A stretch of DNA of 64,000 bases from an uncultured Acidobacteriota bacterium (GCA_963756455.1 CAVWNC010000003.1:1537430-1601429), one strand, 5' to 3'. Shown: positions 11,998 to 38,086, counted from the first letter of the stretch. The notes: generated by a model not told the origin, from the sequence alone. Program-made: numbers and translations.

Positions 11998-12921
11998 CTA
12001 CTGCTTGACGATCTCGATCAGCTCGATATCGAAGACCAGGGTCCCCGCCGGGACTCCTTCGGCCCCCCTGTAGGCGAGCTTTTCGGGAATCCAGAAGCGG
12101 GCGGTCTCTCCCGGGGCCATGAGCTGGATGCCTTCGGTCCAGCCGGGGATCACTTTCGACAGGTTGAAATTGGCCGGCGTGCCGCGGGCGATCGAGGAGT
12201 CGAACATCTTGCCGTCCGTCGTCCAGCCCGTGTAGTTGACCTTGACGATGCTGTCCCCCTTGGGGTGCTTGCCGGCGGCGGGGGTCAGAATCTTGTAGGC
12301 GAGACCGGATTTCGTGTGCTGGGCGTCGGCCGGCGGCGCCGCCACGTCGGGCGGGGCGGGGGGCGGGGCCATCTGAAGGTCGATGAGCGTGACGTCGAAG
12401 ACCAGCATCCCCTGCGGCTTTTTGGGCAGCCCCTCGTAGGCGAGCTTGGCGGGAATCCAGAGGCGCCGAGTCTCGCCCTTGACCATGAGCTGCAACCCCT
12501 CGCCCCAACCGGCGATGACCTTGTCCAGGGGGAGGATGGCCGGTTTACCGCGAGCGATCGAGGAGTCGAACATCTTGCCGTCCGTCGTCCAGCCCGTGTA
12601 ATCGACCTTGACCCGGTCGTTGGGGCCAGGATGAACGGTGCCGGTGCCGGCCGTCAGAACCTTCGAGGCCAGCCCGGAGGCGGTCGTCTGGGCGTCGGCC
12701 GGCGGCGCCGCCACATCGGGCGGAGCGGGGATGGCGGCGACCGCCGGTCGAGCCGCCGGAGCCGCCGCCGATGTCGCCGATGCCGCCGGAGTCGCCGGCG
12801 CGGTCGTCTGGGCGTCGGGAGCGGGCGTGGCCGGGGGTTCGGCGGCGCGGACGCGAGAAGAGGAGGCGAGGACAGGCAGCAGGGTGAGCAGGATGGCGGT
12901 TCTGAGCGTTCTCCGTTTCAT
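11998..12921 (-). CDS. Secreted FKBP-type peptidyl-prolyl cis-trans isomerase with two tandem FKBP domains
   Basis: There is a signal peptide. Two copies of the FKBP signature are present (KV.Y.GWTTDGKMFDSS...G...F.L..VI.GW.EG.QLM..GE...WIP..LAY). The region between them is Pro/Ala-rich. Confidence 0.85.
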   Translation of the reverse strand: MKRRTLRTAILLTLLPVLASSSRVRAAEPPATPAPDAQTTAPATPAASATSAAAPAARPAVAAIPAPPDVAAPPADAQTTASGLASKVLTAGTGTVHPGPNDRVKVDYTGWTTDGKMFDSSIARGKPAILPLDKVIAGWGEGLQLMVKGETRRLWIPAKLAYEGLPKKPQGMLVFDVTLIDLQMAPPPAPPDVAAPPADAQHTKSGLAYKILTPAAGKHPKGDSIVKVNYTGWTTDGKMFDSSIARGTPANFNLSKVIPGWTEGIQLMAPGETARFWIPEKLAYRGAEGVPAGTLVFDIELIEIVKQ

Positions 12922-13819: not shown

Positions 13820-14821
13820 ATGAGCCGGTCCCTGCTCACTCCAGGGCCCCTGCCGCCGCTCTCCCATTTCGGGGTGACCCTGCTGCGGCATGCGGTGGGG
13901 AGCGGCCTGCGCTACGCGCTCTACCTCCTCAACCTCCCCGTCCCCGAGGCGCCCCCGGTGCGGATCGTCCGCCTGCGTCTCTATCTGGACGACGTCAAGC
14001 TCGCCGCCCTCTTGGGCGAGGTTCCCGGAGGCACCGAGGTCGCGGCTGCCCTGGCGGACCCCGGCGGTAGCGGCTCCCTTCCCTCCGGAGCCCGCGGCTT
14101 CGCCGCGGCGGCGGCGTTTCATCGCCTTCGCCTGCGCCTGACCCGCTCCGGCGGTGACAGGGGGGCGCCCTCCTCGGGTGGGTTCCCCGGAATGGGCTCG
14201 CCGGAGAGCCTCGCCGAACGCTTCCGAGTCGAGCTCTCGCGCGGTCTGCCGCACACCAACGAGGCGCTCCTCGCCGACCTGCTCGCCGCCCTCGCCCGCC
14301 GTCGGCGCCGCGCCCGGGGCGAGGAGGTTCCCCCGGTCCTCAGCCGGGCGGCGCGCCGGCTCCTCACCGGACGCCGGGTCGACCTCCACCGCTTCGGTCC
14401 CCCCGATCTCCTTCTCCCCTCCTGGGCCGAGACCCCGGAGCGCGCCGCCGAGGCTCGCTCTCCCATGGCCTCCACTCCGCTCCCCGCCGACCCGCTCCGC
14501 GGCCGTTTCCGCGAGGCCTACCGCACCCTCCTCGACCGCCTCCGCCCCCTCTACCTCGCCACGGCCGCCTCCGCGGTCTCCCGCGGTCTCCTGGAATCGC
14601 CCGAAGATGCCTTCTTTCTCCCCTTGGACCTGGCGGGCGACCTCGCCCAGGAGCAGAGGCCCGCCTGGCTCGACGGCGCCGTCCGCGCCAACCGCGCCGA
14701 GCACGAGGCCTTGAGGCGTTCTCCCGCGCCTCCCGAGCGGGTGACCGGACCGGACGAGGGGACCGTCACCCTCGGCGCTTCGCGGGAGTGGGAAAGGGGA
14801 CCGGTCCTGCCGCTGCCCTGA
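13820..14821 (+). CDS. Hypothetical protein (Ala/Arg/Leu-rich)
   Basis: Only the 3' third of the 727-aa track ORF is not antisense to real genes. It starts at MSRSLLTPG and looks protein-like, but no domain is recognised. Confidence 0.35.
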   Translation: MSRSLLTPGPLPPLSHFGVTLLRHAVGSGLRYALYLLNLPVPEAPPVRIVRLRLYLDDVKLAALLGEVPGGTEVAAALADPGGSGSLPSGARGFAAAAAFHRLRLRLTRSGGDRGAPSSGGFPGMGSPESLAERFRVELSRGLPHTNEALLADLLAALARRRRRARGEEVPPVLSRAARRLLTGRRVDLHRFGPPDLLLPSWAETPERAAEARSPMASTPLPADPLRGRFREAYRTLLDRLRPLYLATAASAVSRGLLESPEDAFFLPLDLAGDLAQEQRPAWLDGAVRANRAEHEALRRSPAPPERVTGPDEGTVTLGASREWERGPVLPLP

Positions 14822-14824
14822 ACG

Positions 14825-14942
14825 GTCCCGTGAGCCGACCTCTGAAGCTCGCTTGAGGAGTTGCCGGCGCCGTCGCGACCTCTTCGCCGGTCGTGAAGTC
14901 CGGCTCGCGGCAGGTTTCGATGCCATATTGGCAGGTAAGGAG
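14825..14942. repeat. Intergenic repeat, copy A (~115 bp), between convergent genes
   Basis: It aligns with 35822..35907 plus 36147..36177. Shared blocks include gaagctcgc..ag..gttgccggcgccgt..g..cctcttcgc.ggtcgtg and gtttc.atgccatattggcaggt.agg.ag. Confidence 0.7.
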
Positions 14943-14969
14943 CCTCGGCCGAACACCCTTAAAGCCACC

Positions 14970-17069
14970 TCAGGCCGCCCGGCGCGCCGCTGCCCGGACC
15001 CGGACCCTGAAGTTGGCCGCGGACCCACCCGTGTCGTCGAACCAGCAGACCCCTTCCTGGACGACCGTGATGCGGAGCCGGTAGGCCCCGGGCTCTGCCG
15101 GGACCGGGATGCGCGTCGTGACCTCCGTCGAGGCCCCCGGCGGGACATCCCGGGGGAGACGGGAACGCTCACCTTCGGCGACGACGACGCCTCCCTGGTC
15201 GTTCAGCCAGCGATAGCCGACCGCCACCCGATAGATCCCGGTGTCGAACGTGCCCACGGCGGACCAGGGGCGGTCGCTCCGGTTGGTCACGGTGACCGGC
15301 ACGCTCAGAGTCTCTCCCGGCAGCACAACACCGGGGACCCGGGCGACGATCCCGGCGCGCGGGTGGAGGAGCGGCCGAGGGTTCACGATCGGCGGCAGCA
15401 GGCGCCGATGCTCCGGGCTGGTATAGACGAGATTGCCGTCGATCGTGCGCACGACGAAGGGCCGGCCGGCGAGCCGGGCGGGGAAGCCGGCGCGCGCCGC
15501 CTCCTCGGGACCGCCGAAGACATAGGCCTCGGTCGACAGGGTCGCCACCCGCTGTGAATAGAGAGGATAGCGGTCCCAGTCCTCAAGCGGGGTCACGACG
15601 ACCTGCTCGCCGGAGAGGAGGGTCACCTTGTAGGAGATCCAGTAGTTGCCGTAGCCCCCCGAGATCCCCTCCTGGCGGAGATACCGCAGGACGTCCGTCA
15701 TCGGGTCCGGCGGATGGAGGAGCCGGAGCCGTGCGTCGAGATAGCCCGAGTCCTCGTGCCAGCGGGCGATCTGTACCAGAGGGAACGCCACGAGGAGAGC
15801 CCCGAGAAGCCAGGCGGCGAGCCGGGCCGATCGCTTCCCGGTCCCGGGCCTGCCGCCGAGCCGGACGAGGAGAGCCCCGGCGAGCACCGGCAGGCTGGTG
15901 AGCCAGGGGAGCAGGTAGCGGTTGGAGAACGCATCCTGGGGATTGGGGCTGAGAACGAAGAGCAGCCCCACGATGGGCACGAGGAGGACGACAAGGGTTG
16001 CGGCGTCGAGCTCTCCGGGCGGCCGCCTGAAGGCGCTCCGGACTCGCGGCCAGGCTCGCAGAGCGCCGGCTCCCCAGGCCGTGAGGTACACCGCGGCGAC
16101 GAGGAGGCCGAGGACACCCGAGAGCAGCCACGGGTGGCGGCCCACCGTTTCGCCGAGCCGCGGGTCCGCTCCCGGATCGATGCCGAGGAACGCCGGGATG
16201 CACTGGGTGACGAGGAGTCGCAGATTGGCGAAGGCCGCCCGGGGATGGGCGAGGGCATAGATCGGCCGCTTGCCGGCGGCCGAGGTTCCGGTCAAGAGGA
16301 GGGCGAGCTTGGGCGCCCACCCGAGAACGAATCCGGCGAGAAACAGGGCCGCACGGCCGAGGATCTGGGGAAAGGTGCGGATCTCGCGCTCGGCCGCCGC
16401 GCGGTCGGGAGCGAGGAGCACCCGCCAGGGGAGCGAGGCGACCACCCAGGCGCAGGCGAGGGTCGCCACGTAAACCAGGAAGAGCTCGTAGATGTAGAGC
16501 CCGAACCCCACCATGAAACCGAGACCGACGAGTCGGGCGAGGCTGGGCGCCGCCCGATACCGGTCGAATTGGACGAAGGTGAGGGTCCCCCACGCGACGA
16601 CCAGAGCATAGCCGCCGCTCGCGAGGACGCTCCACTGCACGACCTGGGGAGAGAACCCGAGGAGGAGAGCGGCCGCGGCGAGGCCGGCAGCCGAGCCGTA
16701 GAGCCGCCGGCCGAGGAGGAAGACCCCCACCATCAGGGCGAGAAAGCCGACGAGCGACCCGAGCTTCGAGGCGAGCGGGATCGCGAGTCCCGCGGCGAGA
16801 AAGGGGATGGTGAGGATACCTTCGACGATGCCGTAATAGTGGGCATCCCAGTTGTAGAGCGTCAGCTCTCCCCGGTGGAGCAGGTGCTGGACGACCAGGG
16901 CGTCGACCGCTTCATCGGCATTGAAGCTGCGGGTGGCATTGGCGAGCCAGGGAAGCCGCGGCAGAATGCTCAAAGCGAGCAGAAGCACCAGCAGACCCCA
17001 GACGAGGAGCGGGCGGGACTCCCACCCTGAGGCGGGAGGCGTCGGCCTCTCCGGGCTCGGTTCACTCAC
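14970..17069 (-). CDS. GT-C superfamily membrane glycosyltransferase (ArnT/PMT, GT39-like) with a C-terminal periplasmic domain
   Basis: The N-terminal ~450 aa has about 12 TM helices with an organisation typical of dolichyl-phosphate-mannose / undecaprenyl-phosphate sugar transferases. A soluble beta-rich C-terminal domain follows. Confidence 0.75.
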   Translation of the reverse strand: MSEPSPERPTPPASGWESRPLLVWGLLVLLLALSILPRLPWLANATRSFNADEAVDALVVQHLLHRGELTLYNWDAHYYGIVEGILTIPFLAAGLAIPLASKLGSLVGFLALMVGVFLLGRRLYGSAAGLAAAALLLGFSPQVVQWSVLASGGYALVVAWGTLTFVQFDRYRAAPSLARLVGLGFMVGFGLYIYELFLVYVATLACAWVVASLPWRVLLAPDRAAAEREIRTFPQILGRAALFLAGFVLGWAPKLALLLTGTSAAGKRPIYALAHPRAAFANLRLLVTQCIPAFLGIDPGADPRLGETVGRHPWLLSGVLGLLVAAVYLTAWGAGALRAWPRVRSAFRRPPGELDAATLVVLLVPIVGLLFVLSPNPQDAFSNRYLLPWLTSLPVLAGALLVRLGGRPGTGKRSARLAAWLLGALLVAFPLVQIARWHEDSGYLDARLRLLHPPDPMTDVLRYLRQEGISGGYGNYWISYKVTLLSGEQVVVTPLEDWDRYPLYSQRVATLSTEAYVFGGPEEAARAGFPARLAGRPFVVRTIDGNLVYTSPEHRRLLPPIVNPRPLLHPRAGIVARVPGVVLPGETLSVPVTVTNRSDRPWSAVGTFDTGIYRVAVGYRWLNDQGGVVVAEGERSRLPRDVPPGASTEVTTRIPVPAEPGAYRLRITVVQEGVCWFDDTGGSAANFRVRVRAAARRAA

Positions 17070-17199
17070 GCGCGGACGCCTGGGTGCCGTAGCGCGGAGG
17101 CGGGGAAGGGGCGGGCGGGGGCCATAGGGCGGCTATTTTAGCCGTTGCGGCCGGGTAGTGCCGTGGAGGAGTCTGGTGATGGCGGGGCGCGTCGAACCT

Positions 17200-18177
17200 T
17201 CAACCCGTGAAAACAGAGGTCTGCGAGGGGATCGGCGCATGGAAAGCGAGCACGTCCTCCAACTCGATCTCCCAGCAGTTTTCGAGAGCAGCGGGGATGG
17301 AGCGGATGATCACGCTCGGGATATCGCCGGGAATCTCCAGGTCATAGCTGTCGGGGTACTGCCCCTCCAGTCTGTTCGTGAGCCGGATCTTGATCGACCC
17401 CAAGGCGGGGCGCCTCTTGGGCGGGTGGAAATCGAGACGGAGGCCGATTGAGGTGAGATCGGCCCGAGTGAGATAGAGGCCATGATGCAGAAAGGTCGAA
17501 GAAGGGACCTGCTCGATGACGATCTGATCCCGGAAGCCTGGCTTATCCTCACCGAGCAGGTGAAGCAGGGTGCGCCGATCCAGCGGAGTTCTACAGACCA
17601 CGAAGCGGAGATGCTGTGACAGTGGCAACCGCCCAGGTACGACGACCTCAGCCATTCGGGCGTCCTGAATGGACTCTTTGTCCATGACATCGGGAACGGA
17701 GTCGTGGTAAACCCACTCGAAAGGAATCTGATCGAAAAGGCGAATGTCTCTACCGATCTGGCGTCTTCTCGACAGCATGCCTGGAGAGAACCCGACCTCA
17801 GGAAGCGTGAGGACGGACAAGGCATCGAAGACCAGCATGATCGGGACCGACATCTGATACCTGTCCCGATAGGGATCATCACGGCACTTTATGCCCTCGG
17901 TTTTGAAATGAAAATTGTTTTTGGGCCTGAAGTAGAGGCGGACAGAGCCGTGAGGCTGCGGGTTATTGTGTAAGGCTCCCTGATTTGCGACGTCGTGCTT
18001 GATGGTGCCCAGTCGGCTCCTGCAGATGAGGTGGCCCGAGCGGAGAATCTCGACCGCTGTCGTTACATGGGCTGCGTGGAAAAGATATTTCGGCCAGAGG
18101 CTATTACGGGAGAAGAGGCCTGACCACCCGGACCACTCGGCGATATGCCGTGCGGCCCGCTCCGGTGTCAGGCCCAC
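17200..18177 (-). CDS. darT: DarT-like ssDNA ADP-ribosyltransferase (DUF4433) with a ~120-aa C-terminal extension
   Basis: It aligns block by block with Thermus DarT: YLFHAAHV (cf. IYHITHI), VRLYFRPK (cf. VPFYFCPR), and DARMAEVVVPGRLPLSQHLRFVVC (cf. KQAEFLVYKAFPWALIEEIAVY, including the catalytic Glu). Its start overlaps the 3' end of the macrodomain gene by 10 nt. Local G+C is reduced. Confidence 0.65.
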   Translation of the reverse strand: MGLTPERAARHIAEWSGWSGLFSRNSLWPKYLFHAAHVTTAVEILRSGHLICRSRLGTIKHDVANQGALHNNPQPHGSVRLYFRPKNNFHFKTEGIKCRDDPYRDRYQMSVPIMLVFDALSVLTLPEVGFSPGMLSRRRQIGRDIRLFDQIPFEWVYHDSVPDVMDKESIQDARMAEVVVPGRLPLSQHLRFVVCRTPLDRRTLLHLLGEDKPGFRDQIVIEQVPSSTFLHHGLYLTRADLTSIGLRLDFHPPKRRPALGSIKIRLTNRLEGQYPDSYDLEIPGDIPSVIIRSIPAALENCWEIELEDVLAFHAPIPSQTSVFTG

Positions 18178-19061
18178 AACTTTCCCTGGACCTGCTCGCG
18201 CCTGGCCTCCACGTGAAGGGAGGGGCGGCGCTCACGGAAAAACAAGCCATGGCCTGGCTGGTAGGCATTCCCACGCAAATGTTGAATCTTGGCAGCCTGC
18301 ACATAAGGAAGGCGAGCCAGGACGCTCAACAGATAGTCGTTGTGCCGACGGGAGAGCTCTCCGTCCAACTGATCCGCTGTCAGTAGTCCCACCTGAAGAG
18401 CAGACCATGCGGTCTCGAGCTCTTCGTGGAGAACCTTCTCCTTTTCACCGGACTCGTGGATCTCCAGATCGCCATTGTCGAGGATCGCGGCGGTGAAAAG
18501 CGAGTCGCGGTCCAGGGTTTCGAAGGAAGGCTCAGCAGTCAGCGTGCGGATGTCGTCCAGGAAATGCTCATAGTCGACCGCCGGCGGGATCTTCTCCAAG
18601 TGCTCGGGTACGAAGTCCGTTGCCACGTACCGCTCATGAACGTAGACCTGAATAGGCAGATCTTGGAGGTAGGACTCGATCAGCGGCTTGACGTCCGCCC
18701 AGTCAAGATTGCCATTGCCACAGCCGAGCGGCGGGAAGGAAATCGAGGTGATCCCGAGATTTTCATAGCTCGCCACGAACTTCTCGAGCCCTTCCCTCAC
18801 ATAGGGGAGGGTCGAGGGAAGGCGCCATGTGGTTTTGGTCGGGAAGTTGAGGACCCACTTGTCCGGTCCCCTCCATAGCTGGAGCGTCCCGGTCCGCAGC
18901 TCTCCCCGGTCGCAGAGCCACTTGTACTCCCCGAACATTTCGGGATACCGCTCCTTGAAGCTTTTCGCGATCCCCTTCCCCATGACTCCGACGGTGTTGA
19001 CCGCATTGACCAGCGTCTGGGCGGGTGAGGCGAAGAGGTCGGTTTGAAGGTAGACGATCAT
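18168..19061 (-). CDS. darG: DarG-type (TARG1-like) macrodomain protein with a C-terminal domain; putative DarG antitoxin
   Basis: The N-terminal motifs TDLFASPAQTLVNAVNTVGVMGKGIAKSFKERYPEMF and ...ISFPPLGCGNGNLDW match the TARG1/DarG macrodomain. A ~150-aa C-terminal region is unassigned. Confidence 0.75.
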   Translation of the reverse strand: MIVYLQTDLFASPAQTLVNAVNTVGVMGKGIAKSFKERYPEMFGEYKWLCDRGELRTGTLQLWRGPDKWVLNFPTKTTWRLPSTLPYVREGLEKFVASYENLGITSISFPPLGCGNGNLDWADVKPLIESYLQDLPIQVYVHERYVATDFVPEHLEKIPPAVDYEHFLDDIRTLTAEPSFETLDRDSLFTAAILDNGDLEIHESGEKEKVLHEELETAWSALQVGLLTADQLDGELSRRHNDYLLSVLARLPYVQAAKIQHLRGNAYQPGHGLFFRERRPSLHVEARREQVQGKLWA

Positions 19062-19127
19062 CCAGGCCCCCTGCGGCTTTACCCCTCGAAGTGTAACGGC
19101 ATTTGCGGCGTAAGTCGAGCGTTATGG

Positions 19128-19164
19128 GGGGAGATTCGGAGGAGATTCGGGGGAGATTCTGGGG
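19128..19164. repeat. Three tandem copies of a ~11-nt unit (GGAGATTCGG) about 70-100 nt upstream of the darG start
   Basis: The sequence is gggggagattcggaggagattcgggggagattctgggg. It is a candidate operator or promoter-associated repeat for the darG-darT operon. Confidence 0.6.
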
Positions 19165-19175
19165 CAGCCCCTCGC

Positions 19176-22587: not shown

Positions 22588-25500
22588 TCAGCCCCCCACC
22601 TGCATCGGCGGCAGCTCCGGCAGCAGCCGGAGGTCGGAGTCCCCAACTTTTTTCCGGAACGCGGCCACGTCCTCGGCCGCGAAGCGGTTCAGAGCGTCGA
22701 CCGCGTCTTTCGTCGTCTGGCGGGCGATCTCCAGGTAGGCCTCCTGGGCGGGAGTCGGGGCGTCCCAAGAGGACTGGAGCGACTGGAGAGCGCGGCCGAT
22801 CTTCGACTGGGCGTCGTTGTCGGGGAGCTCTCCCTCTTCGGTCGGGGCGTGCCAGAAGCGCTGCTCCAGGGTCTTGAGCTTGTCGAGGAGCTTCTGGCTG
22901 GCGTCGGTGATCTCCTTGGTGGCCGGATCGGGCTTCGTCGTGTCCTCGCGGCGCTTCCTCTCGTCGTCGTTCTTCTTCACCTGGGCCGTCAGCGCCTGGA
23001 CGTCGGTGCGGATGCGGCCGATGCGCTCGACGGCGTTGGCGATCGTCTCCTGGAGGGCGCCGCTCTCCGCAAAGGCTTTCTCGCGCGCGTCGCGGGCGGT
23101 CTGCGGGATGTCGAAGCGCGGATCGGGGAGCACCTGGAGCCTCCCCTCCGCCTTGTGGTCGCCGTAGGTCACCCGCACGCGGTAGGTTCCGGGCATCACT
23201 TCGGGTCCAGCGTCGCGGAAGAAGCCACCGCGGTTGCGCCGGTTGGGCGACTTGTAGGACTTGCGGCCGAGGTCCCAGACCGCCCGGTTGATACCGAGGG
23301 TCGCGGGCTGCTCGAAGCTCCGGATCACCTTGCCCGAGACGTCGAGGATCTCGATCCGCGCCTTGGGTCCGTCTTTGTCTCTGCCGCCTCCCCCCCTGCC
23401 ACCGTCCCCCGGCGGTTTCCCGCCGGCCGGAGCCACCGTGGGCTGGTCCTCGCCGGAGGACCGCGCCTCCCGTTCGGCGGCGAGGGCCTTCTCGCGCTCT
23501 TTTTCGAGCTCGGCGTTCTTCCGGTCCCGCTCCGCCTGGGCGTCCGGCAGAGGGAGACCGGGAACGTTCAGGGTATAGGTGATGAGAGCGCCGTAGGGCC
23601 GGCCGTCCCCGCGGTACTCGCCGGTGCCGGGGAAGTGACTGCCGCCCGGTTGCCCCACCCGGTGCTGGATGGTGTCGGAGATCTCGAAGAGATGGAGCGG
23701 CTCCTTCAAAACCGCCGGCGAGAGGGTGCGGAGGGGGCGGATGTCGTCGATGATGTAGATGCCGCGGCCATGGGTGGCGGCGATCAGGTCGCCCTCCCGG
23801 GGCTGGATGGCGAGGGCCATATAGGAGGTCGTGGGGAGGCCGCCCTTCAAGGGGAGCCAGGCCTTGCCGCCGTCCTCTGTAAACCAGAGGCCGTACTCGG
23901 TGCCCAGGAAGAGGAGGTTCCGGTCGACCGGGTCCTCGACGGTCGCGAGGGCGTAGCCGCGGAGGTCCGGGGTGACCAGGCTCTGCCAGGTGCGGCCGAA
24001 GTCGGTCGTCCTGACGACATAGGGGGCGACGTCGGAGCGGCGGTGGTTGTCGAAGACGACGTAGGCGGTCCCGGCGTCGAACCGGGAGGCGGTGATCTGG
24101 GGGATCCAGGTATGGGCGGGCACGCCGTGGACGTTCCCCTCGACGCTCTGCCAGGTCTTGCCGCCGTCCCGGGTCACCTGGAGGCGGCCGTCGTCGGTCC
24201 CCACCCAGATCACCCCACGCTCCAGGGGTGAGGGAGCGATGGCGAGAAGGGTCGTGAAGTTCTCCGCCGCCGTGGCGTCGATGATCAGGCCGCCGCTCTC
24301 GTCCTGGTGCTGCCACTCCGGCCGGTTGGTCGTCAGATCGGGAGAGATCACCGTCCAGGTCTCGCCGCGGTCGGTCGAGCGGTGGAGGTACTGGCTCCCC
24401 AGGTAGATCGTGTCGGGATCGAAGGGATCGACGGCGAAACCGGTGTTCCAGTTGAAGCGCAGCTTGCCGCCCGCGGGAGGCGCCGGCTGGATGTCCTTGC
24501 GCTCGCCGCGGTTCAAATCCCAGCGCACCAGGTGGCCGCCCTGGGAGAGCGAGTAGCCGCGGCTGGGGTCCTTGAGATCCGGAGCGGTGTCGAAGCCGTC
24601 CCCGAAGCCCACCTCCTTCCAGTCGGAGTTGCGGATGCCGCCGTTCACCCAGACCGTGCTCGGACCCTTCCAGGCACCGTTGTCCTGCATGCCGCCGTAG
24701 ACGTTGTAGGGCACGGCATCGTCGAAGCGCACGTGGTAGAACTGGGGGATCGGCAGGTTCTGCACGTAAGCCCAGTTCTTCCCCCGGTCGCGCGAGATCG
24801 CCACGCCGCCGTCGTTGCCGAGGAGGATGTTGTTCCCATCCCTGGGATCGATCCAGATGGCATGGAAGTCCGGGTGGACGTCTCTGAACGGCACCAGGGT
24901 GCTCCAGGTCTTGCCGCCGTCGTCCGAGCTGTCGACCTCGGTCGCCAGGCGGTAGATGCGGTCGGCGTCCTGGGGATCGACGGCGATGTGCGAGAAGTAG
25001 AAGGGGCGGGAGGTGACGTTGGGCTCGCTGTTGATGCTCTTCCAGGTCCGGCCGTCGTCGTCCGAGCGCAGGAAGGCGCTCTGCTTGGCCTCGACCAGGG
25101 CATAGACCCGCCGCGGGTCACCGGGGGCGAAGGCGAGGGCGATCCGGCCGAGGTTCCCCTTCGGCAGGCCGTCCTCCTCGGTCAGCCGCTTCCAGGTCTC
25201 ACCGCCGTCGTGGCTCTCGAAGAGCCCGGAGCCCGGGCCGCCGGAGCGGAAGAACCAGGGCCAGCGGCGGAACTGCCACATCGCGGCATAGAGATGGTCA
25301 GGATTGCCGGGCTCGGCCACCAGATCGGCGGCACCGGTCTTGTCGTCGACGTAGAGAACCTTCCGCCAGCTCTTCCCGCCGTCCTCGGTCTTGAAGATGC
25401 CGCGCACCGGACCGTCCCCCCAGGCGGGACCCAGGGCCGCCACCCAGGCCACCCGTGGGTCGGTGGGGTGGAGGACGATCTTAGGGATGCGCTCGCTGCC

Positions 25501-25929
25501 GTCGAGCCCCAGGTGAGCCCAGGTCTTGCCGCCGTCGAGCGACTTGTAGACCCCGTTGCCCAGCGAGACGCTGTTTCGCGGGTTGGCCTCGCCGGTCCCC
25601 ACCCAGACGATGTCGGGACTCTGGGGATGGGTGGCGATGGCGCCGATCGAGGCGACCTCTTGGTCGTCGAAGATCGGCTCCCAGGTGAGACCGGCGTCGA
25701 GCGACTTCCAGACCCCGCCCGCGGCGGCCCCCACGTAGACGATCGACGGGTTGGACGCCACAGCCTCGACCGCGGCGACCCGCCCGCTGACGACCGACGG
25801 ACCGATCGAGCGCGCCCGGAGGCCCGCAAGGAGGGTCGGGTCGAAGGCGGGGGCGGCGACGAGCGGTGCTGCCAGTAGAACGGCGAGGGTGAGAACGAGC
25901 GGCAAGGCGGCGGACGGGGAGCTCTTCAT
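22588..25929 (-). CDS. Secreted sortilin/VPS10-type BNR (Asp-box) repeat protein with a C-terminal coiled-coil/low-complexity region
   Basis: There is a signal peptide. Multiple S-x-D-G-G-x-T-W Asp-box repeats (SLDGGKTW, TEDGGKSW, SHDGGETW, SDDGGKTW, TRDGGKTW...) span two propeller-like halves. Confidence 0.8.
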   Translation of the reverse strand: MKSSPSAALPLVLTLAVLLAAPLVAAPAFDPTLLAGLRARSIGPSVVSGRVAAVEAVASNPSIVYVGAAAGGVWKSLDAGLTWEPIFDDQEVASIGAIATHPQSPDIVWVGTGEANPRNSVSLGNGVYKSLDGGKTWAHLGLDGSERIPKIVLHPTDPRVAWVAALGPAWGDGPVRGIFKTEDGGKSWRKVLYVDDKTGAADLVAEPGNPDHLYAAMWQFRRWPWFFRSGGPGSGLFESHDGGETWKRLTEEDGLPKGNLGRIALAFAPGDPRRVYALVEAKQSAFLRSDDDGRTWKSINSEPNVTSRPFYFSHIAVDPQDADRIYRLATEVDSSDDGGKTWSTLVPFRDVHPDFHAIWIDPRDGNNILLGNDGGVAISRDRGKNWAYVQNLPIPQFYHVRFDDAVPYNVYGGMQDNGAWKGPSTVWVNGGIRNSDWKEVGFGDGFDTAPDLKDPSRGYSLSQGGHLVRWDLNRGERKDIQPAPPAGGKLRFNWNTGFAVDPFDPDTIYLGSQYLHRSTDRGETWTVISPDLTTNRPEWQHQDESGGLIIDATAAENFTTLLAIAPSPLERGVIWVGTDDGRLQVTRDGGKTWQSVEGNVHGVPAHTWIPQITASRFDAGTAYVVFDNHRRSDVAPYVVRTTDFGRTWQSLVTPDLRGYALATVEDPVDRNLLFLGTEYGLWFTEDGGKAWLPLKGGLPTTSYMALAIQPREGDLIAATHGRGIYIIDDIRPLRTLSPAVLKEPLHLFEISDTIQHRVGQPGGSHFPGTGEYRGDGRPYGALITYTLNVPGLPLPDAQAERDRKNAELEKEREKALAAEREARSSGEDQPTVAPAGGKPPGDGGRGGGGRDKDGPKARIEILDVSGKVIRSFEQPATLGINRAVWDLGRKSYKSPNRRNRGGFFRDAGPEVMPGTYRVRVTYGDHKAEGRLQVLPDPRFDIPQTARDAREKAFAESGALQETIANAVERIGRIRTDVQALTAQVKKNDDERKRREDTTKPDPATKEITDASQKLLDKLKTLEQRFWHAPTEEGELPDNDAQSKIGRALQSLQSSWDAPTPAQEAYLEIARQTTKDAVDALNRFAAEDVAAFRKKVGDSDLRLLPELPPMQVGG

Positions 25930-26024
25930 ATCGACCTCCGATATACCGAGGGAAGACTATGCGCCGGGATGGGCGGGGAGCAAGGGTTGGAGGGTCTGAC
26001 CTCCGTGCCTGCCCGGACAGAAAC

Positions 26025-32433: not shown

Positions 32434-33504
32434 ATGCTCGACGAACGTACCTGCTGGAACGCGGTTCTCGCCAAGGACGCCGGCCAGGATGGCCGCTTCT
32501 ACTTCGGCGTCTTAACGACCGGAGTCTACTGCCGCCCCTCCTGCCCCGCCCGCAAGCCGCGCCGCGAGAACGTCCGCTTCTACGAGGCGCCCGAGGCGGC
32601 GGAGAAAGCTGGCCTCCGGGCCTGCCTGCGCTGCCGTCCGAAGGAGACGCCGGAGGTCCAGAGCGCGAAGATGGGAGAGATCTGCGACTTCCTCCGTCAG
32701 GCCTCCCTCTCCGGCGAGCCGGTGACCCTGGAGATCTTGAGCGAGCGGGCCGGGATGAGCCCCTTCCGCTTCCAGCGCGTCTTCCGCGCCGCCCTCAAAG
32801 TGACGCCCCGACAATATCTCCAGGCCTGCCGCTTCGAGGCGCTCAAAAAGAGCTTGCGGAGCGAGGGCTCGGTGACGGACGCCATCTACGAGGCGGGTTT
32901 CGGTTCGAGCAGCCGGGTCTACGAACAGACCGACGCGCGTCTCGGCATGACTCCCGCCGAGTACCAGGCGGGCGGCCGGAACCTCGCGATCTCCTGCGCT
33001 TCCTTCGAGAGCCCGATCGGCCGGTTGATGGTGGCCGCTACGGATCGCGGCCTCTGCTTCGTACAGTTCGGAGATTCCCACGAAGCGCTTCTCGCGGCGC
33101 TCCGCAAGGAATATCCCGAGGCCACGATCGAGACGCTGGCGGCGCCCTTCGAGGCGCCTTTCGATCGCTACGTCGAAGCGCTCCGCCGCCATCTCGCCGG
33201 CGACCAGCCGCACTTGGACCTGCCCGTCGCCGTCCGCGCCACGGCCTTCGAGCTCAAAGTCTGGAGCTACCTCCAGTCGATTCCCTACGCCGAAAAGCGT
33301 TCCTACTCCGCCGTGGCCGCCGCGGTCGGCCAACCCCAAGCCGCCCGCGCCGTGGCCCGCGCCTGCGCCGCCAACCGGGTGGCCCTGGTGATCCCCTGCC
33401 ATCGAGTGATCCGGGCGAACGGAGATCCTGGAGGGTATCGGTGGGGGTTGGAACGGAAGAAGCGCCTGTTGGAGGGAGAACGGACGAGCGCCAACGCTCT
33501 GTAG
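32434..33504 (+). CDS. ada: Bifunctional Ada: zinc-finger methylphosphotriester methyltransferase, AraC HTH regulator and O6-methylguanine-DNA methyltransferase
   Basis: An Ada Zn-binding domain (CRPSCPARKP...CLRCRP) is followed by an AraC-type HTH and a C-terminal MGMT active site PCHRVI. Confidence 0.85.
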   Translation: MLDERTCWNAVLAKDAGQDGRFYFGVLTTGVYCRPSCPARKPRRENVRFYEAPEAAEKAGLRACLRCRPKETPEVQSAKMGEICDFLRQASLSGEPVTLEILSERAGMSPFRFQRVFRAALKVTPRQYLQACRFEALKKSLRSEGSVTDAIYEAGFGSSSRVYEQTDARLGMTPAEYQAGGRNLAISCASFESPIGRLMVAATDRGLCFVQFGDSHEALLAALRKEYPEATIETLAAPFEAPFDRYVEALRRHLAGDQPHLDLPVAVRATAFELKVWSYLQSIPYAEKRSYSAVAAAVGQPQAARAVARACAANRVALVIPCHRVIRANGDPGGYRWGLERKKRLLEGERTSANAL

Positions 33505-33564
33505 ACAAACTATACGACGACGGCGGGTGCTAAAATGACGTCTCTCCGATTGGCATGAGGCCCA

Positions 33565-34836
33565 ATGACGAACGTCACTGCCCTGCCCCTCCGCATCGTC
33601 TTCTGCCATGCCTCGCAGCCCGACGGCCTGGACAAGGCTCCGCCTTCTTGGGGTGCCATCACGGCGTCGGAGCTCGAGCTGACACTCTTCGGTGATCCCG
33701 CGAAGGATCGTTCCCGGCGCTGGGAGCCGCTCGATCTCGCCGCCGCCATCCCGCTCAAGGACGACATCGGTTTCCGGACCTTTACGGCTCGGTCACGTCG
33801 GCCGGATGGGAGCCTCCAGCCCGCGGCGGAATTCTTCGACGAGGTGCTGCACACGATTCTGGTCGTGTTCGTGGACGATCTCCTGCAGGGGGATTTGGAC
33901 CTGGTCGACTGGCTGACGGACTGCCTGCGGCACTGCGACGCTTCCTCAGGACGGCACCGCTTCGTGTCCGTGGTACCCGGTGACGAGACGAGGAGACGAT
34001 GTCTCGCTAAGCCCGGTCTCGGAACCCACAATGCGGTCGACTTCTCTCAGCTGGGCGAAGAGGCGGAGCGCCTGGACTGGCTCTCTCTTCAGGTGCTGGA
34101 CTGGGCGATGCAGGCGGCGGCTAGAGGGGCCGGCGAGGGCAAACAGTGGAAAGTGCGATTCTTCGTGTCCCATGCCAAGCGGGACGGAATCTCGCTGGCC
34201 CAGAGCCTGCGGGACCGTGTGAAGGAGATCCACTGGCTGGAGAGCTTCTACGACGCCTGGAGCCTGGACCCGAGCCGGCCGTGGATCGAACAGTTGGAAG
34301 AGGCGGTCGCCTCCTCGGTGGTGGTGGCGCTGCGCACGGACAACTATGACCACCGGCCCTGGTGCCAGGCGGAGGTTCTCTGGGCCGAGCAGCACGGCTC
34401 TCCCCTGATTCTGGTGGATGCGCGGAGCGGCCTCGTCCATGCGGCGAGCAATCTCCCCTATGAGAGCGCTCCCTGTGTGCGGATTCCGGACGGCAATCTC
34501 GTCCGCATCCTGCATGCGGCCTTGCGCGTCGCCCTGCGGGCGCGGATCTTCGTTCGCCGAGCCCAGGAGCTCAAAAACCTGGGACTTCTGAACGGGACGG
34601 TCGAGCTCATCCCGGTCACCCCGGGGCTTCGCGCGATCGTCGGCGCTTGCAGTAAGTTGGAACGTGCAGCGAAGGATGCGGCGAAGAATCCACCGCCCTA
34701 TTCGGTCTGCTACCCCGATCCGGGGCTCCGGGACGTGATCAGCCGGGCGGCGCAGGCGCTGGCCGCGAGTGCCTCGGTTCCGATCCAGATCGTGACTCCA
34801 CGAACCCTGCTTTCCGCTCCGGGGGTGACGGTATGA
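33565..34836 (+). CDS. TIR-domain protein (central TIR with a WC..E catalytic motif) with N-terminal TIR-like and C-terminal unknown regions
   Basis: The central KVRFFVSHAKRDG...LEEAVASSVVVALRTDNYDHRPWCQAEVLWA matches the bacterial TIR fold, including the conserved Glu. The N-terminal ~175 aa (LRIVFCHASQPDG..., ILVVFVDDLL) may be a second, degenerate TIR-like domain. Its stop overlaps the start of the next gene (ATGA). Confidence 0.65.
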   Translation: MTNVTALPLRIVFCHASQPDGLDKAPPSWGAITASELELTLFGDPAKDRSRRWEPLDLAAAIPLKDDIGFRTFTARSRRPDGSLQPAAEFFDEVLHTILVVFVDDLLQGDLDLVDWLTDCLRHCDASSGRHRFVSVVPGDETRRRCLAKPGLGTHNAVDFSQLGEEAERLDWLSLQVLDWAMQAAARGAGEGKQWKVRFFVSHAKRDGISLAQSLRDRVKEIHWLESFYDAWSLDPSRPWIEQLEEAVASSVVVALRTDNYDHRPWCQAEVLWAEQHGSPLILVDARSGLVHAASNLPYESAPCVRIPDGNLVRILHAALRVALRARIFVRRAQELKNLGLLNGTVELIPVTPGLRAIVGACSKLERAAKDAAKNPPPYSVCYPDPGLRDVISRAAQALAASASVPIQIVTPRTLLSAPGVTV

Positions 34837-35762
34837 GCGTCCACGCCCAGCCGCTCGCCGGGCTCCGCGTGGGGATCTCGATCTCTGAGAGCGACGATCT
34901 GGAGGCCCGGGGTTTCACGCGTTCCGCGATGAACCGTCTGACGGTCCGCTTGACCGACGCGTTGCTGGCTGCCGGGGCGACTGTGGTGTTCGGCCACGAC
35001 TGGCGAGAGGACGGCATTATGGATGCCGTCTGCCGCTCCGCCCTTTGGTCTTTCGGAGTTCCGGAGCCGGACGCCCGACCCCCGGTTCTCAACCTGCTCC
35101 CCTGGCCGGATGAAACCCGCGTGGACAGCGAAATTCGCCTCCGTTTGCACCAGGTCATCGACATCCGCTCCGCGGGCCTGCCCGAGAGCCTGCTCAGGGA
35201 GGCTCCAAAGGCAGCGGAGGATCGGGATCTCCGGCGTTACTTGCGTTCTCGCGGCCTCACTCACCTTCGGCGTAGGTTGACGGAGGAGTGTCAGGCACGC
35301 ATTTGCCTGGGCGGTCGAGAGAGCGGATACCAGGGCCGCTATCCCGGGGTCCTGGAGGAGGCGCTGCTCGCGTTCGAGGCACGCCAACCGGTGTATCTGG
35401 TCGGCCTGCTCGGTGGGGTTGCCGAGCACCTGGGCCGCAGCATCCTTGCTCTGCCGAATCCGCGCGCGGGACAGGAGAGGGTCCCTCCCCCGGCAATGGG
35501 GCCTGGAAAGTCTTTGGAAGATCTCTACAGGGACCATCGCGACGGGGACCGCCCCTCTCGTGATCCTTTGGACGACACGAGCTTCGAGTTGGAGCGCGCG
35601 TGGGAGGCTGCAAGAAACGTCGGCCGGGAAAGACTCGGAGACAATCGGCTGGATTACGACGAGGGCCGCCGGTTGGTGGAGAGCCGGTCCGAGGAGGAGG
35701 TGATCATCCTCGTGCTGAGGGGGTTACGGCGGAAGGTTGACCCAGAGAGGAGGCGGCGGTGA
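34833..35762 (+). CDS. SLOG/LOG-like Rossmann-domain protein (putative nucleotide-signal sensor) with a charged C-terminal tail
   Basis: The order of motifs mirrors the LOG/SLOG family: LRVGISISESDD, then TVVFGHDW.EDGIMDAV, then ICLGGRESGYQGRYPGVLEEALLA....PVYLVGLLGG (cf. the LOG PGGyGTleE motif). The assignment is by pattern only. Confidence 0.5.
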   Translation: MSVHAQPLAGLRVGISISESDDLEARGFTRSAMNRLTVRLTDALLAAGATVVFGHDWREDGIMDAVCRSALWSFGVPEPDARPPVLNLLPWPDETRVDSEIRLRLHQVIDIRSAGLPESLLREAPKAAEDRDLRRYLRSRGLTHLRRRLTEECQARICLGGRESGYQGRYPGVLEEALLAFEARQPVYLVGLLGGVAEHLGRSILALPNPRAGQERVPPPAMGPGKSLEDLYRDHRDGDRPSRDPLDDTSFELERAWEAARNVGRERLGDNRLDYDEGRRLVESRSEEEVIILVLRGLRRKVDPERRRR

Positions 35763-35821
35763 GCTCTCTGCCTGGACCTCCGAACCGGGTCAGCTCGGGA
35801 GCGTGGCGGATACGTCTCGCT

Positions 35822-36177
35822 GTCCCGTGGGTCGGCCTCCGAAGCTCGCCTCAGGGGTTGCCGGCGCCGTTGTGGCCTCTTCGCGGGTCGTGCCGCCTGG
35901 CTCGCGGGTCGAAAAACGCCGTTCACGGACCGAAAAACTCGCGAAACGGGCGTTTCGAGGCGCTCGCGCGCCGATATGGCGCCTTACGGGCCAGTTCGCG
36001 GGTTTCACGTGTCGATTTTGGCGTTTTTCGGCCCGGTAAGATCGCGAATCGAGCGATTCGCGCCCTGATTCGACTTGTCGTCGCGTTTTTCGGGACGTGC
36101 GTCGCGTTTTTCGACTCGTCGAGGGCATTTTTCGAGGTTCACGACGGGTTTCCATGCCATATTGGCAGGTGAGGGAG
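35822..36177. repeat. Intergenic repeat, copy B, interrupted by a ~239-bp A/T-containing palindrome-rich insertion (35908..36146)
   Basis: 35822..35907 and 36147..36177 align with copy A (14825..14942). The intervening segment carries CGAAAAAC/GTTTTTCG motifs and perfect hairpins (cgaaacgggcgtttcg; gcgccgatatggcgc; cgcgaatcgagcgattcgcg). Confidence 0.7.
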
Positions 36178-36335
36178 GCCCGTCAAGGGCCATCGTTGAG
36201 GAGGACATACATCGGGTCCTGTTCCCGGATTCGCCTCAGCCCCGGATCTTGGAAGAGCTAAGGGAGGGCGTACGGCAGCACGCAAAAAACCGCCCTACAG
36301 CCGTTGATAGCTCTTCTACACCCAAATCTCCGAAG

Positions 36336-37715: not shown

Positions 37716-38078
37716 TCAACCTTCCCGATGCACGAGAGTCGGCGAGAAGGCCGGCAGGCAGACGGCGATGTATTCGGCGCCTTCCGGGTCGGGGGTGCTG
37801 TAGCGCACCCACTCGCCGCGGCCGACGACGATCGCCTCTCCGGCTTTGACGTCGTAGGTCTTCTCGCGGGTCTCGACTCGGAGCGCGCCGCGGAGGACGA
37901 CCGTGTATTCGTCGAATTCCGGGGTCTGCGCGGGTTCCTCCCAGCCGCCGGGGCTCGTCATCCGGGCGATGCTCGTCGATTGGGTTCCCGAATTCACATT
38001 GCCGACGAATTCCTCGATCAGCTTGGGCTTGTTGCCCGCGGGAGCGATCCGGGTCGGCGCGGTCAGGTGCTTCACCAT
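37716..38078 (-). CDS. Cupin-domain protein
   Basis: The cupin beta-barrel motifs (G.....H......Y.V.G) are present. The start is at MVKHLT, with an RBS GAAAGGAA that lies inside the upstream 27-bp repeat. Confidence 0.6.
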   Translation of the reverse strand: MVKHLTAPTRIAPAGNKPKLIEEFVGNVNSGTQSTSIARMTSPGGWEEPAQTPEFDEYTVVLRGALRVETREKTYDVKAGEAIVVGRGEWVRYSTPDPEGAEYIAVCLPAFSPTLVHREG

Positions 38079-38086
38079 AGGCTCAA

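What the first reader, a model, noticed from the sequence alone, without database searches (positions are those of the whole stretch)
14825..14942. Intergenic repeat family placed between convergent genes; one copy carries a 239-bp palindrome-rich insertion
A ~115-bp sequence at 14825..14942 recurs at 35822..36177. Both copies sit in convergent-gene intergenic gaps. In the second copy the repeat is split by a ~239-bp segment that is unusually A/T-containing for this genome. That segment is packed with CGAAAAAC/GTTTTTCG motifs arranged as forward copies on the left and reverse copies on the right, plus three perfect hairpins: CGAAACG-GG-CGTTTCG, GCGCC-GATAT-GGCGC, and CGCGAATCG-AG-CGATTCGCG. 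The 3' block atgccatattggcaggt(a/g)agg is the best-conserved part. This could be a REP/MITE-like element with a nested insertion, a structured sRNA, or a clustered protein-binding site.
Basis: seen in the sequence. Interest (0 to 1): 0.55.

Follow-up and report, generated by a model that had tools for sequence, protein, structure and literature searches.

The report
Nested small mobile non-coding repeats
Two copies of a small non-coding mobile repeat sit between genes of an uncultured acidobacterium, and one copy has a second palindromic mini-transposon nested inside it; this is an ordinary kind of bacterial mobile DNA, although the outer element's insertion signature is unusual.

Summary
A unit I call X (86-nt 5' block plus about 30-nt 3' block) occurs at 14825-14942 and, split, at 35822-36177.

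- **Copy A is a recent insertion.** It is 164 nt (14822-14985) and is flanked by a 13-nt duplication. Five close relatives have the empty site, with a single 13-mer.
- **The "239-bp insert" is a separate element, Y.** It is 228 nt (35908-36135), has terminal inverted repeats and 21-nt sub-repeats, and is flanked by a 9-nt duplication of X sequence. Copy A carries that site uninterrupted.
- **The composite is not a one-off.** X::Y recurs at 81-85% identity at a different locus in a related metagenomic genome (L064).
- **It is not a known or coding sequence.** There is no Rfam match, no conserved reading frame, and no plasmid, phage or viral relative.
- **Folding favours the + strand.** It folds better than the - strand, with wobble and compensatory changes, so co-transcription as a 3' UTR structure is plausible but untested.

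Best reading: a lineage-restricted family of non-autonomous repeats, a MITE (Y) nested in a repeat without terminal inverted repeats (X). It is a new family of a known kind and of modest interest. X's mechanism (no terminal repeats, 13-nt duplication) is unresolved.

The parts
14809..14821 (+). Left copy of the 13-nt target duplication of X copy A (GCCGCTGCCCTGA). It includes the stop codon of the upstream + gene.
   Evidence: a single 13-mer in L065, L071, L072 and L073 aligns to both window flanks; this pattern hits only these two places in the window.
14822..14985 (+). X copy A (short form), the DNA present in the window but absent from relatives. It has three parts: 5' block 14825-14910, 3' block 14911-14942, and a non-family tail 14943-14985 that now supplies the last codons and stop of the - strand glycosyltransferase.
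   Evidence: Predicted + strand helices: P1 14828-14837/14901-14910, H1 14846-14850/14858-14862, H2 14863-14869/14885-14891, and hairpin 14921-14925/14929-14933.
14902..14910 (+). Uninterrupted 9-nt target of Y (GGCTCGCGG) inside X copy A, followed directly by CAGGTTTCG.
   Evidence: compare with the two long forms.
14986..14998 (+). Right copy of the 13-nt target duplication (GCCGCTGCCCGGA, 12 of 13 identical to the left copy).
35822..35907 (+). X copy B, 5' block. Its last 9 nt (35899-35907, GGCTCGCGG) are the left copy of Y's target duplication.
35908..36135 (+). Y, a 228-nt palindromic element nested in X. Its termini are GTCGAAAAACGCC... and ...GGCATTTTTCGA. It has 21-nt sub-repeats (two forward on the left, three reverse on the right, one internal) and three perfect internal hairpins. 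G+C is 58%.
   Evidence: (I1, I3, I8, D2, D3, D7). It is 85% identical to L064 5638-5862.
36136..36144 (+). Degenerate right copy of Y's 9-nt target duplication (GGTTCACGA, 6 of 9). In L064 the pair is GGCTCACGG / GGCTCGCAG (7 of 9).
36145..36199 (+). X copy B, 3' block (CGGGTTTCCATGCCATATTGGCAGGTGAGGGAG...). It runs up to the point where synteny with relative L066 resumes, at 36199/36200.
33493..35821 (+). Context, not part of the repeat. This is window-specific DNA to the left of copy B. It holds a TIR-domain gene (33565-34836) and a SLOG gene (34833-35762). It begins inside the 3' end of the Ada-like gene.

Best explanation
The finding is a small, lineage-restricted family of non-autonomous mobile DNA in a Thermoanaerobaculia-like acidobacterium. 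It is made of two different elements.

**X** is a non-coding unit of about 120-165 nt without terminal inverted repeats. It inserts into the 3'-proximal space of genes. At the one site where empty alleles are available, it is flanked by a 13-nt target duplication.

**Y** is a classical MITE of about 226 nt, with terminal inverted repeats, 21-nt sub-terminal repeats (inferred transposase-binding sites) and a 9-nt target duplication. It inserted into a fixed position at the end of X's 5' block.

The composite X::Y has itself been copied to new loci. Alternatively, Y specifically targets that site in X.

**Shown:** repetition, presence/absence polymorphism, both flanking duplications, Y's inverted repeats, and lack of coding potential.

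**Inferred:**
- Both elements are mobilised in trans by enzymes encoded elsewhere.
- Because all three copies are co-oriented with the upstream gene and the + strand folds better, the elements are probably co-transcribed as structured 3' UTR or intergenic RNA, and tolerated or selected as such.
- As dispersed repeats, they take part in genome rearrangement. Copy B sits exactly at a synteny breakpoint.
For: **Repeat is real.**

**X copy A is an insertion.**
- Window 14821 and 14986 map to positions 13 nt apart and overlapping in L065, L071, L072 and L073, which are 89-94% identical. In L064 the overlap is 10 nt.
- In those genomes the two convergent genes overlap.
- The 13-mer pair is unique in the window.
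- Copy A differs from copy B by about 16%, while the flanking genome differs from the empty-site relatives by only 6-8%. Copy B is therefore not the donor, and further copies must exist or have existed.

**Y is nested in X.**
- Inverted arms of 37 nt at 78%, with a perfect 10-nt core CGAAAAACGC/GCGTTTTTCG.
- 9-nt flanking repeats in both long forms, and an uninterrupted GGCTCGCGG-CAGGTTTCG in copy A.

**A third copy exists.** The long form lies at L064 5568-5926, between a GGDEF gene and the glycosyltransferase gene. This is a different locus. Identity is 81% over 342 nt, and 85% within Y.

**Non-coding.**
- Indels of 1, 2 and 11 nt separate the copies.
- Translations of the open frames have no homologues among 5.8 billion and 1.84 billion proteins.

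**Structure.**
- Consensus fold of the two long forms is -111 kcal/mol on the + strand against -81 on the - strand.
- There are 7 compensatory pairs, against 0-1 when partners are slid.
- For X alone (three copies) the values are -38.6 against -26.4. L064's 11-nt deletion removes only the loop of helix H2.

**Definition.** The MITE definition, and the known placement of such repeats at gene 3' ends where they are co-transcribed, are taken from PMC3184786.
Against: - Only three copies are known. None was found in roughly 240 kb of further DNA from eight related contig sets, so copy number may be low.
- X has no terminal inverted repeats. A 13-nt duplication without them does not match a standard transposase signature, so X may move by another route, for example templated patch repair or recombination.
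- The outer ends of X are defined at only one site. The flanking repeats at L064 and at copy B are ambiguous.
- No candidate transposase with Y-like ends was seen.
- The free energy of X alone is not better than that of shuffled sequence (z -0.3).
- The public scans used the 3' 17-mer, which turned out to be variable, so they say little about how widely the family is distributed.
Confidence: 0.68

Rival explanations
1. X, with or without Y as an expansion hairpin, is primarily a structured small RNA gene or 3' UTR RNA element transcribed from the + strand. The copies would be paralogous RNA genes whose function is selected.
For: - The + strand folds better than the - strand: -111 against -81 kcal/mol and -38.6 against -26.4.
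- Many differences between copies are G-U wobbles that pair only on the + strand.
- There are 7 compensatory pairs.
- The L064 deletion is confined to a loop.
- All three copies are co-oriented with the upstream gene.
Against: - No Rfam family matches, even at E<=10.
- No promoter-like or terminator-like site lies in or next to X.
- X alone folds no better than shuffles.
- The element is absent from the orthologous site in all close relatives and sits at a different locus in L064. It therefore behaves as an insertion, not a conserved gene.
- Only 2-3 sequences were available, and the structure was derived from those same sequences.
Confidence: 0.15
2. Y is a cluster of protein-binding sites with a cellular role, such as iteron-like origin, partition or operator sites spaced 21 nt apart, rather than a transposon relic.
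For: - 21-nt periodic repeats of CG.CGCGTTTTTCG lie in two opposed clusters around a palindromic centre.
- The segment is A+T-enriched relative to the genome.
- It is well conserved, at 85%, between two genomes.
Against: - It is flanked by a 9-nt duplication of X, with an intact empty site in copy A.
- It lies at unrelated loci in the two genomes, with no adjacent Rep, Par or regulator gene.
- It has no relatives in plasmids or phages.
- The motif occurs nowhere else in about 300 kb of related DNA.
Confidence: 0.05
3. X or X::Y is a recombination site or module that travels with, or marks the border of, defence and toxin-antitoxin gene cassettes, analogous to integron attC or pdif modules.
For: - Copy B ends the window-specific TIR+SLOG segment exactly at the synteny breakpoint 36199/36200.
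- The L064 copy occupies the same GGDEF-glycosyltransferase spacer that holds a DarT/DarG island in the window and in L062/L063.
- GTTGAGG, at the 3' end of copy B, resembles the attC core GTTRRRY.
Against: - Copy A carries no cargo.
- The DarTG island has no X-like sequence at either border.
- No integrase or Xer-type gene lies nearby.
- The GTTRRRY-like motif is imperfect and is absent from copy A and from L064.
- The flanking duplications differ between sites, which is unlike a fixed att core.
Confidence: 0.05
4. The two copies are a chance or purely local duplication with no family behind them.
For: Only two copies occur in 64 kb. The exact-pattern scans of public genome and metagenome collections returned only chance matches.
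Against: - A third copy lies in another genome at another locus.
- Empty sites exist in five relatives.
- Chance expectation for the shared patterns is about 0.
Confidence: 0.01

Closest known systems
Bacterial MITEs such as Correia/NEMIS (Neisseria), ERIC (Enterobacteriaceae) and RUP (definition and examples in PMC3184786 and PMC2229807)
   Same: - Small (about 100-400 bp) and non-coding.
- Intergenic, and often just 3' of genes.
- Flanked by target duplications.
- Able to fold into long hairpins as RNA.
- Occur in long and short size variants (from my own knowledge for Correia and ERIC).
- Presence/absence differences between close strains.

Y meets every sequence criterion that could be tested here.
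   Different: - There is no sequence similarity to any of them.
- X lacks terminal inverted repeats and makes a 13-nt duplication, rather than the TA or short duplications of those families.
- Copy number appears low.
- No cognate insertion sequence (IS) is known.
IS-derived MITEs with 9-bp target duplications, e.g. MITEAba12 (PMC6382973; the 9-bp figure and its IS5-family origin are from my own knowledge)
   Same: Y has terminal inverted repeats and a 9-nt duplication, and it is non-coding. It therefore probably depends on a transposase supplied in trans.
   Different: - Y is twice as long.
- It carries 21-nt sub-terminal repeats in both arms. This is more like the multi-site ends of Mu, Tn7 or IS21-type elements, which make duplications of other lengths (own knowledge).
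- No parent IS has been identified.
Insertion sequences that insert at a fixed position inside REP/BIME repeats (IS621, IS1397/ISKpn1; cited in the reference list of PMC3184786)
   Same: One mobile element sits at one precise position within another short repeat. In both long forms, Y sits at the same nucleotide of X.
   Different: Those are autonomous, transposase-encoding IS elements, whereas Y is non-coding. Here a single ancestral insertion followed by spread of the composite explains the data equally well.
REP/REPIN elements mobilised by RAYT transposases
   Same: They are extragenic, lie between convergent genes, form hairpins, and have proposed roles in mRNA stability and termination.
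   Different: - REPs are 20-40-nt units with a GTAG or CGTC head and hundreds of copies (PMC3733652 abstract).
- X is larger and is not a global palindrome.
- X is flanked by a duplication.
- No RAYT gene was looked for or seen.
Eukaryotic SINEs (comparison of mechanism only)
   Same: X has no terminal inverted repeats, a duplication of more than 10 nt, a variable 3' tail, strand-specific RNA-like folding, and one orientation relative to transcription.
   Different: No reverse transcriptase, internal promoter or 3' repeat tail is evident. Target-primed retroposition of such RNAs is not known in bacteria. This is a resemblance only.

Membership tests
MITE (non-autonomous DNA transposon; criteria as in PMC3184786) | Small size (about 100-400 bp) with no transposase or other conserved coding capacity | tested here: met
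   X is 164 nt and Y is 225-228 nt. Indels of 1, 2 and 11 nt separate the copies. Translated frames have no homologues.
MITE (non-autonomous DNA transposon; criteria as in PMC3184786) | Terminal inverted repeats, tested for Y | tested here: met
   The ends are GTCGAAAAACGCC... and ...GGCATTTTTCGA. There is a perfect 10-nt inverted core and 33-37-nt arms that are 76-78% complementary (I1, I3, I8). The same holds in L064.
MITE (non-autonomous DNA transposon; criteria as in PMC3184786) | Terminal inverted repeats, tested for X | tested here: not met
   Local alignment of the first 90 nt against the reverse complement of the last 90 nt gives only 7-15-nt chance-level matches in all three copies. 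Only an internal inverted repeat (P1) bounds the 86-nt block.
MITE (non-autonomous DNA transposon; criteria as in PMC3184786) | Flanking target-site duplication, confirmed against an empty site | tested here: met
   X copy A has a 13-nt duplication (12 of 13 identical) with empty sites in L065, L071, L072 and L073, and a 10-nt overlap in L064. Y has a 9-nt duplication (7 of 9 and 6 of 9), with the uninterrupted site in copy A. The flanks of X at copy B and at L064 are ambiguous.
MITE (non-autonomous DNA transposon; criteria as in PMC3184786) | Multiple dispersed copies, with different locations in related genomes | tested here: inconclusive
   Three copies at three loci in two genomes. No others were found in the related DNA fetched. 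The rest of the 3.16-Mb source contig could not be read.
MITE (non-autonomous DNA transposon; criteria as in PMC3184786) | A cognate autonomous IS sharing the terminal repeats | not testable with these tools
   No transposase was found among the window ORFs scanned, which were only those near the elements. The Y terminal motif occurs nowhere else in the window or the first eight related loci. Whole genomes were not available.
REP / BIME / REPIN | A 20-40-nt palindromic unit, or an inverted pair of such units, in high copy number | tested here: not met
   The 86-nt block is not a global palindrome (z 1.2-2.7 against shuffles). Only three copies were found in all the DNA examined.
Curated structured RNA family (Rfam 15) | A match to a covariance model | tested here: not met
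   No hit at gathering score anywhere in the window. Only chance-level hits at E<=10 over both copies. No tRNA or tmRNA.
Conserved chromosomal sRNA gene | Presence at the syntenic position in related genomes, with its own promoter and terminator | tested here: not met
   Absent from the orthologous sites in L062-L065 and L071-L073. No promoter-like or terminator-like signals.
Integron attC / gene cassette | An imperfect palindrome ending in the GTTRRRY core, arranged in cassette arrays near an intI integrase | tested here: not met
   Only copy B has GTTGAGG near its end. There is no array, no integrase in the neighbouring ORFs, and copy A has no cargo.

The most novel reading that the evidence does not exclude
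X is not a conventional DNA transposon. It could be a structured RNA-like element that is copied into gene-3'-proximal sites by an undescribed route, for example reverse-transcriptase-dependent or other templated insertion. That route would leave duplications of 10 nt or more, no terminal inverted repeats and a variable 3' tail, making X a bacterial analogue of a SINE. A variant of this reading is that X is a recombination module that seeds or borders defence and toxin-antitoxin islands.
Probability: 0.07. Interest if true: 0.8.

Novelty: new member of a known kind. Interest (0 to 1): 0.3.

Why it matters
- **Evidence of recent mobility.** It shows recently active, non-autonomous mobile DNA in an uncultured Thermoanaerobaculia lineage, where almost nothing is known about mobile elements.
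- **Effect on genes.** The insertion at copy A pulled apart two convergent genes that overlap by about 56 nt in relatives, and it rewrote the C-terminal tail of a membrane glycosyltransferase.
- **Link to genome plasticity.** Copy B sits exactly at a synteny breakpoint beside a TIR+SLOG gene pair. The third copy occupies a spacer that holds a DarTG island in other genomes. The family therefore marks, and may promote, plasticity at defence and toxin-antitoxin hot spots.
- **Practical use.** The elements are useful strain markers.
- **If X proves unconventional.** A mechanism that explains the missing terminal repeats and the 13-nt duplication would be of wider interest.

Tried and rejected
1. 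**Public scans with the 3' block.**
   - The genome-contig scan with the exact 17-mer gave 60 hits. All were chance matches in unrelated taxa, mostly coding "DAILAG". One intergenic Planctomycetota site (L003) lacks the 5' block.
   - The metagenome-contig scan with a 21-nt pattern gave one chance hit.
2. **Viral contigs.** Four patterns from X and Y gave only chance hits, in a methyltransferase gene and in P-loop (GAGK) coding sequence.
3. **Plasmid and phage collections.** blastn found no match.
4. **Fishing for copies through spurious ORFs.** The - strand 121-aa frame and the + strand 137-aa frame found nothing.
5. **Rfam.** Nothing at gathering score or at E<=10. This also argues against a group II intron fragment, an omega RNA, or a retron-like ncRNA.
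6. **Sigma-54 or sigma-70 promoter in the 3' block.** Spacing fits in copy A only, and the scan found none. Rejected.
7. **Coding fragment.** The frame encoding ..FDAILAGKEP.. is open only because of the high G+C, and substitutions between copies are not conservative. Rejected.
8. **Outer terminal inverted repeats for X, and a global palindrome for the 86-nt block.** Not found.
9. **Target duplications for X at L064 and at copy B.** Candidate repeats exist (GGATCTTC..; GGA.TAC.TC) but cannot be verified, because no clean empty site is available there.
10. **Deletion between two X::Y copies as the origin of the breakpoint at copy B.** The relative L066 has no X on its side of the junction. Unsupported.

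Full report
**1. Observation**

The two regions were read directly.
- Gap-free repeat finding gives 14825-14910 against 35822-35907 at 83% identity (D7).
- The 3' block GGTTTCnATGCCATATTGGCAGGTrAGG is present at 14912-14942 and 36147-36177.
- Its 17-nt core occurs exactly twice in the window, against 0.01 expected. A 30-nt degenerate 5'-block pattern also occurs twice, against 0 expected.
- The intervening segment in copy B has 58% G+C in a 69% genome, the lowest 2% of windows.
- It holds 5 of the window's 7 CGAAAAAC/GTTTTTCG octamers, against 0.77 expected.

Codon-position G+C and Pfam show that both copies lie between convergent genes.
- Copy A lies between a + gene ending at 14821 and a - strand GT39-like membrane glycosyltransferase ending at 14970.
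- Copy B lies between a + strand SLOG gene ending at 35762, preceded by a TIR-domain gene, and a - strand DUF72 gene ending at 36336.

**2. Organism and comparison material**

Homologues of the flanking proteins are annotated as Thermoanaerobaculia or Acidobacteriota MAG proteins. The window comes from a 3.16-Mb contig that could not be read beyond the window.

Through the flanking proteins I fetched related DNA at several distances.

| Loci | Nucleotide identity to window |
|---|---|
| L065, L071-L077 | about 89-94% |
| L066/L067 | about 91% |
| L064/L068 | about 85% |
| L062, L063/L069 | about 79% |

**3. Copy A is a recent insertion with a 13-nt duplication**
- In L065, L071, L072 and L073 the window sequence up to 14821 and the window sequence from 14986 align to stretches that overlap by 13 nt. 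In L064 the overlap is 10 nt.
- Those genomes therefore carry one copy of GCCGCTGCCCTGA. Their two convergent genes overlap by about 56 nt.
- The window has GCCGCTGCCCTGA at 14809-14821 and GCCGCTGCCCGGA at 14986-14998. These are the only two matches in 64 kb. They bracket 164 nt that the relatives lack.
- The more distant L062/L063 also lack the element. Insertion in the window's lineage is therefore the parsimonious reading.
- The inserted DNA is longer than the family unit. Its last 43 nt (14943-14985) match nothing else and now encode the end of the glycosyltransferase, whose C-terminal tail differs from that of relatives.
- Copy A is 84% identical to copy B and 90% identical to the L064 copy. 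The surrounding genome is 92-94% identical to the empty-site relatives. Copy B therefore cannot be the donor, and other copies must exist or have existed. This last step is inference.

**4. The "insert" is a second element (Y) nested in the first (X)**

The junctions line up as follows.

| Copy | Sequence at the junction |
|---|---|
| Copy A | ..TCC-GGCTCGCGG-CAGGTTTCG.. |
| Copy B | ..GGCTCGCGG-[228 nt]-GGTTCACGA-CGGGTTTCC.. |
| L064 | ..GGCTCACGG-[225 nt]-GGCTCGCAG-CAGGTTTCG.. |

- This is the signature of a 9-nt target duplication, with copy A as the uninterrupted site. Copy A could equally be a precise-excision product; three-taxon comparison cannot tell which.
- Y begins (G/A)TCGAAAAACGC and ends GCATTTTTCG(A/G).
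- It has 33-37-nt inverted arms (76-78% complementary) and a perfect 10-nt inverted core.
- It has 21-nt sub-repeats: two forward on the left, three reverse on the right, and one internal.
- Y therefore meets the sequence criteria of a MITE as summarised in PMC3184786.
- The 21-nt repeats are most simply read as multiple transposase-binding sites. This is inference.

**5. The long form is not a one-off**
- L064 5568-5926 carries X::Y at 81% identity over 342 nt, and 85% within Y.
- It sits at a different locus, between the stop of a GGDEF gene and the start of the glycosyltransferase gene.
- In the window, and in L062/L063, that spacer holds a DarT/DarG island (window 17081-19174, 60% G+C). 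In L065 and L071-L073 the spacer is only 8 nt.
- So either the composite moves as a unit, or Y targets that exact site in X.
- nhmmer profiles of X and Y found no further copies in the window or in any related locus. Y's terminal motif was absent outside Y in the window and the first eight related loci.

**6. Copy B lies at a synteny breakpoint**
- Homology with L066/L067 starts at window 36200, immediately after the 3' block of X. Window 36200-36308 is the remnant of a 153-aa gene that is intact in L066.
- On the left, homology with L071, L076 and L077 ends at about 33491, inside the 3' end of an Ada-like gene.
- The 2.7 kb in between (TIR gene, SLOG gene, X::Y) is specific to the window.
- In the L066/L071 contig the two flanks are collinear but about 79 kb apart. 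X::Y is thus associated with a rearrangement junction.
- A simple recombination between two X::Y copies is not supported, because L066 has no X at its side.

**7. Not coding, not a known RNA**
- The copies differ by 1-, 2- and 11-nt indels.
- The open frames are the usual high-G+C artefacts and have no homologues.
- Rfam gives nothing at gathering score or at E<=10. ARAGORN finds no tRNA or tmRNA.
- No sigma-70-like promoter or intrinsic terminator lies within X.
- Plasmid, phage and viral collections hold no relative.

**8. Strand and structure**
- The two long forms give a consensus fold of -111 kcal/mol (106 pairs) on the + strand, against -81 kcal/mol (93 pairs) on the - strand.
- On the + strand structure there are 7 pairs with compensatory double changes and 14 with one-sided G-U changes. 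There are 0-1 compensatory pairs when partners are slid by 1-3 columns.
- With Y removed, a hand-adjusted alignment of the three X copies folds into a three-way junction (P1, H1, H2) plus the UGCCA-UAU-UGGCR hairpin. The energy is -38.6 on the + strand against -26.4 on the - strand. L064's 11-nt deletion removes only the H2 loop.
- Caveats: only two or three sequences were available. The structures were derived from those same sequences. X alone folds no better than shuffled sequence. Y's z-scores are only about -2.
- The evidence is suggestive of selection on, or tolerance of, a + strand transcript or single strand. It is not proof.
- All three copies are co-oriented with the gene upstream. 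Two begin within 6 nt of its stop codon.

**9. Interpretation**

The best-supported account is a lineage-restricted family of non-autonomous repeats.
- Y is a typical MITE.
- X is a small mobile unit without terminal inverted repeats, whose one verifiable insertion made a 13-nt duplication.
- X does not pass the terminal-repeat criterion, so I do not file X as a MITE in the strict sense. It works like the broader class of small bacterial intergenic mobile repeats (Correia, ERIC, RUP, REP-like; PMC3184786, PMC2229807).
- The rivals are less well supported for the reasons given in their entries. They are: an sRNA gene family, a protein-binding array, a cassette-associated recombination site, and chance.

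**10. Novelty and score**
- The sequences define new families, since nothing similar was found in any library searched. The kind of element is well known.
- The unusual points are X's lack of terminal repeats combined with a 13-nt duplication, the fixed nesting of Y in X, and the association with defence and toxin-antitoxin hot spots.
- These leave a small probability (about 0.07) of an unconventional mechanism.
- Overall interest is about 0.3.

Noticed in passing
window 17081-19174: A DarT/DarG (ADP-ribosyltransferase toxin and macrodomain antitoxin) island with 60% G+C lies between the GGDEF and glycosyltransferase genes. It is absent from the closest relatives (L065, L071-L073), where only 8 nt separate the genes. 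It is present in the more distant L062/L063. L064 has the X::Y repeat at this same spacer.
   Followed up: partly
window 33493-35821: A window-specific gene pair encodes a TIR-domain protein (423 aa) and a SLOG cluster-2 protein (309 aa), with overlapping stop and start. This is a candidate defence or signalling pair. It replaces the last ~15 codons of the Ada-like gene. PADLOC gives only a weak ThsB-like hit for the TIR protein.
   Followed up: partly
window 38114-38749 (repeats at about 38073-38114 and 38753-38795): A 636-nt cassette carries a HigB-like toxin gene (38478-38696) and a small partner ORF. It is absent from L066 and L074. It is flanked by a direct repeat of about 40 nt, of which 27 nt are perfect (TTCCTTTCTCGTCAAGCCTCGACAGGG). 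The relatives carry this repeat once. Part of the cassette also occurs downstream of DUF72 in L068.
   Followed up: partly
window 36200-36308: This is the remnant of the 3' end of a 153-aa gene that is intact in L066 (10764-11225). In the L066/L071 contig, the window's two flanks of the TIR/SLOG segment are about 79 kb apart.
   Followed up: partly
window 22588-25929: A 1113-aa protein with internal BNR/Sortilin-like repeats (DNA repeat families D1, D3, D9, D12) is present in L072/L073. The region is missing from L071, whose alignment with the window skips 22589-26023.
   Followed up: no
window 12064-12730: A tandem duplication with a period of about 366-369 nt and 80% identity lies inside the - strand gene 11998-12921, whose orthologue in L064/L071 carries an FKBP_C domain.
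   Followed up: no
window 19125-19165 (- strand reading): Three tandem copies of CCGAATCTCC(C/T)C lie at the GGDEF-proximal edge of the DarTG island.
   Followed up: no
L003 4240-4275 (Planctomycetota MAG): An intergenic site reads ATGCCATATTGGCAGGTAGGGA. It matches 20 of 22 nt of the X 3' block but has no X 5' block. It is probably chance, though it is the only non-coding, high-G+C hit among the 60.
   Followed up: partly
L074 10765-11392: In the relative from sample 3300035672, the spot downstream of DUF72 holds a PIN/MazE-type toxin-antitoxin pair instead. The DUF72 3' flank therefore differs in every genome examined (window, L066, L068, L069, L074).
   Followed up: no
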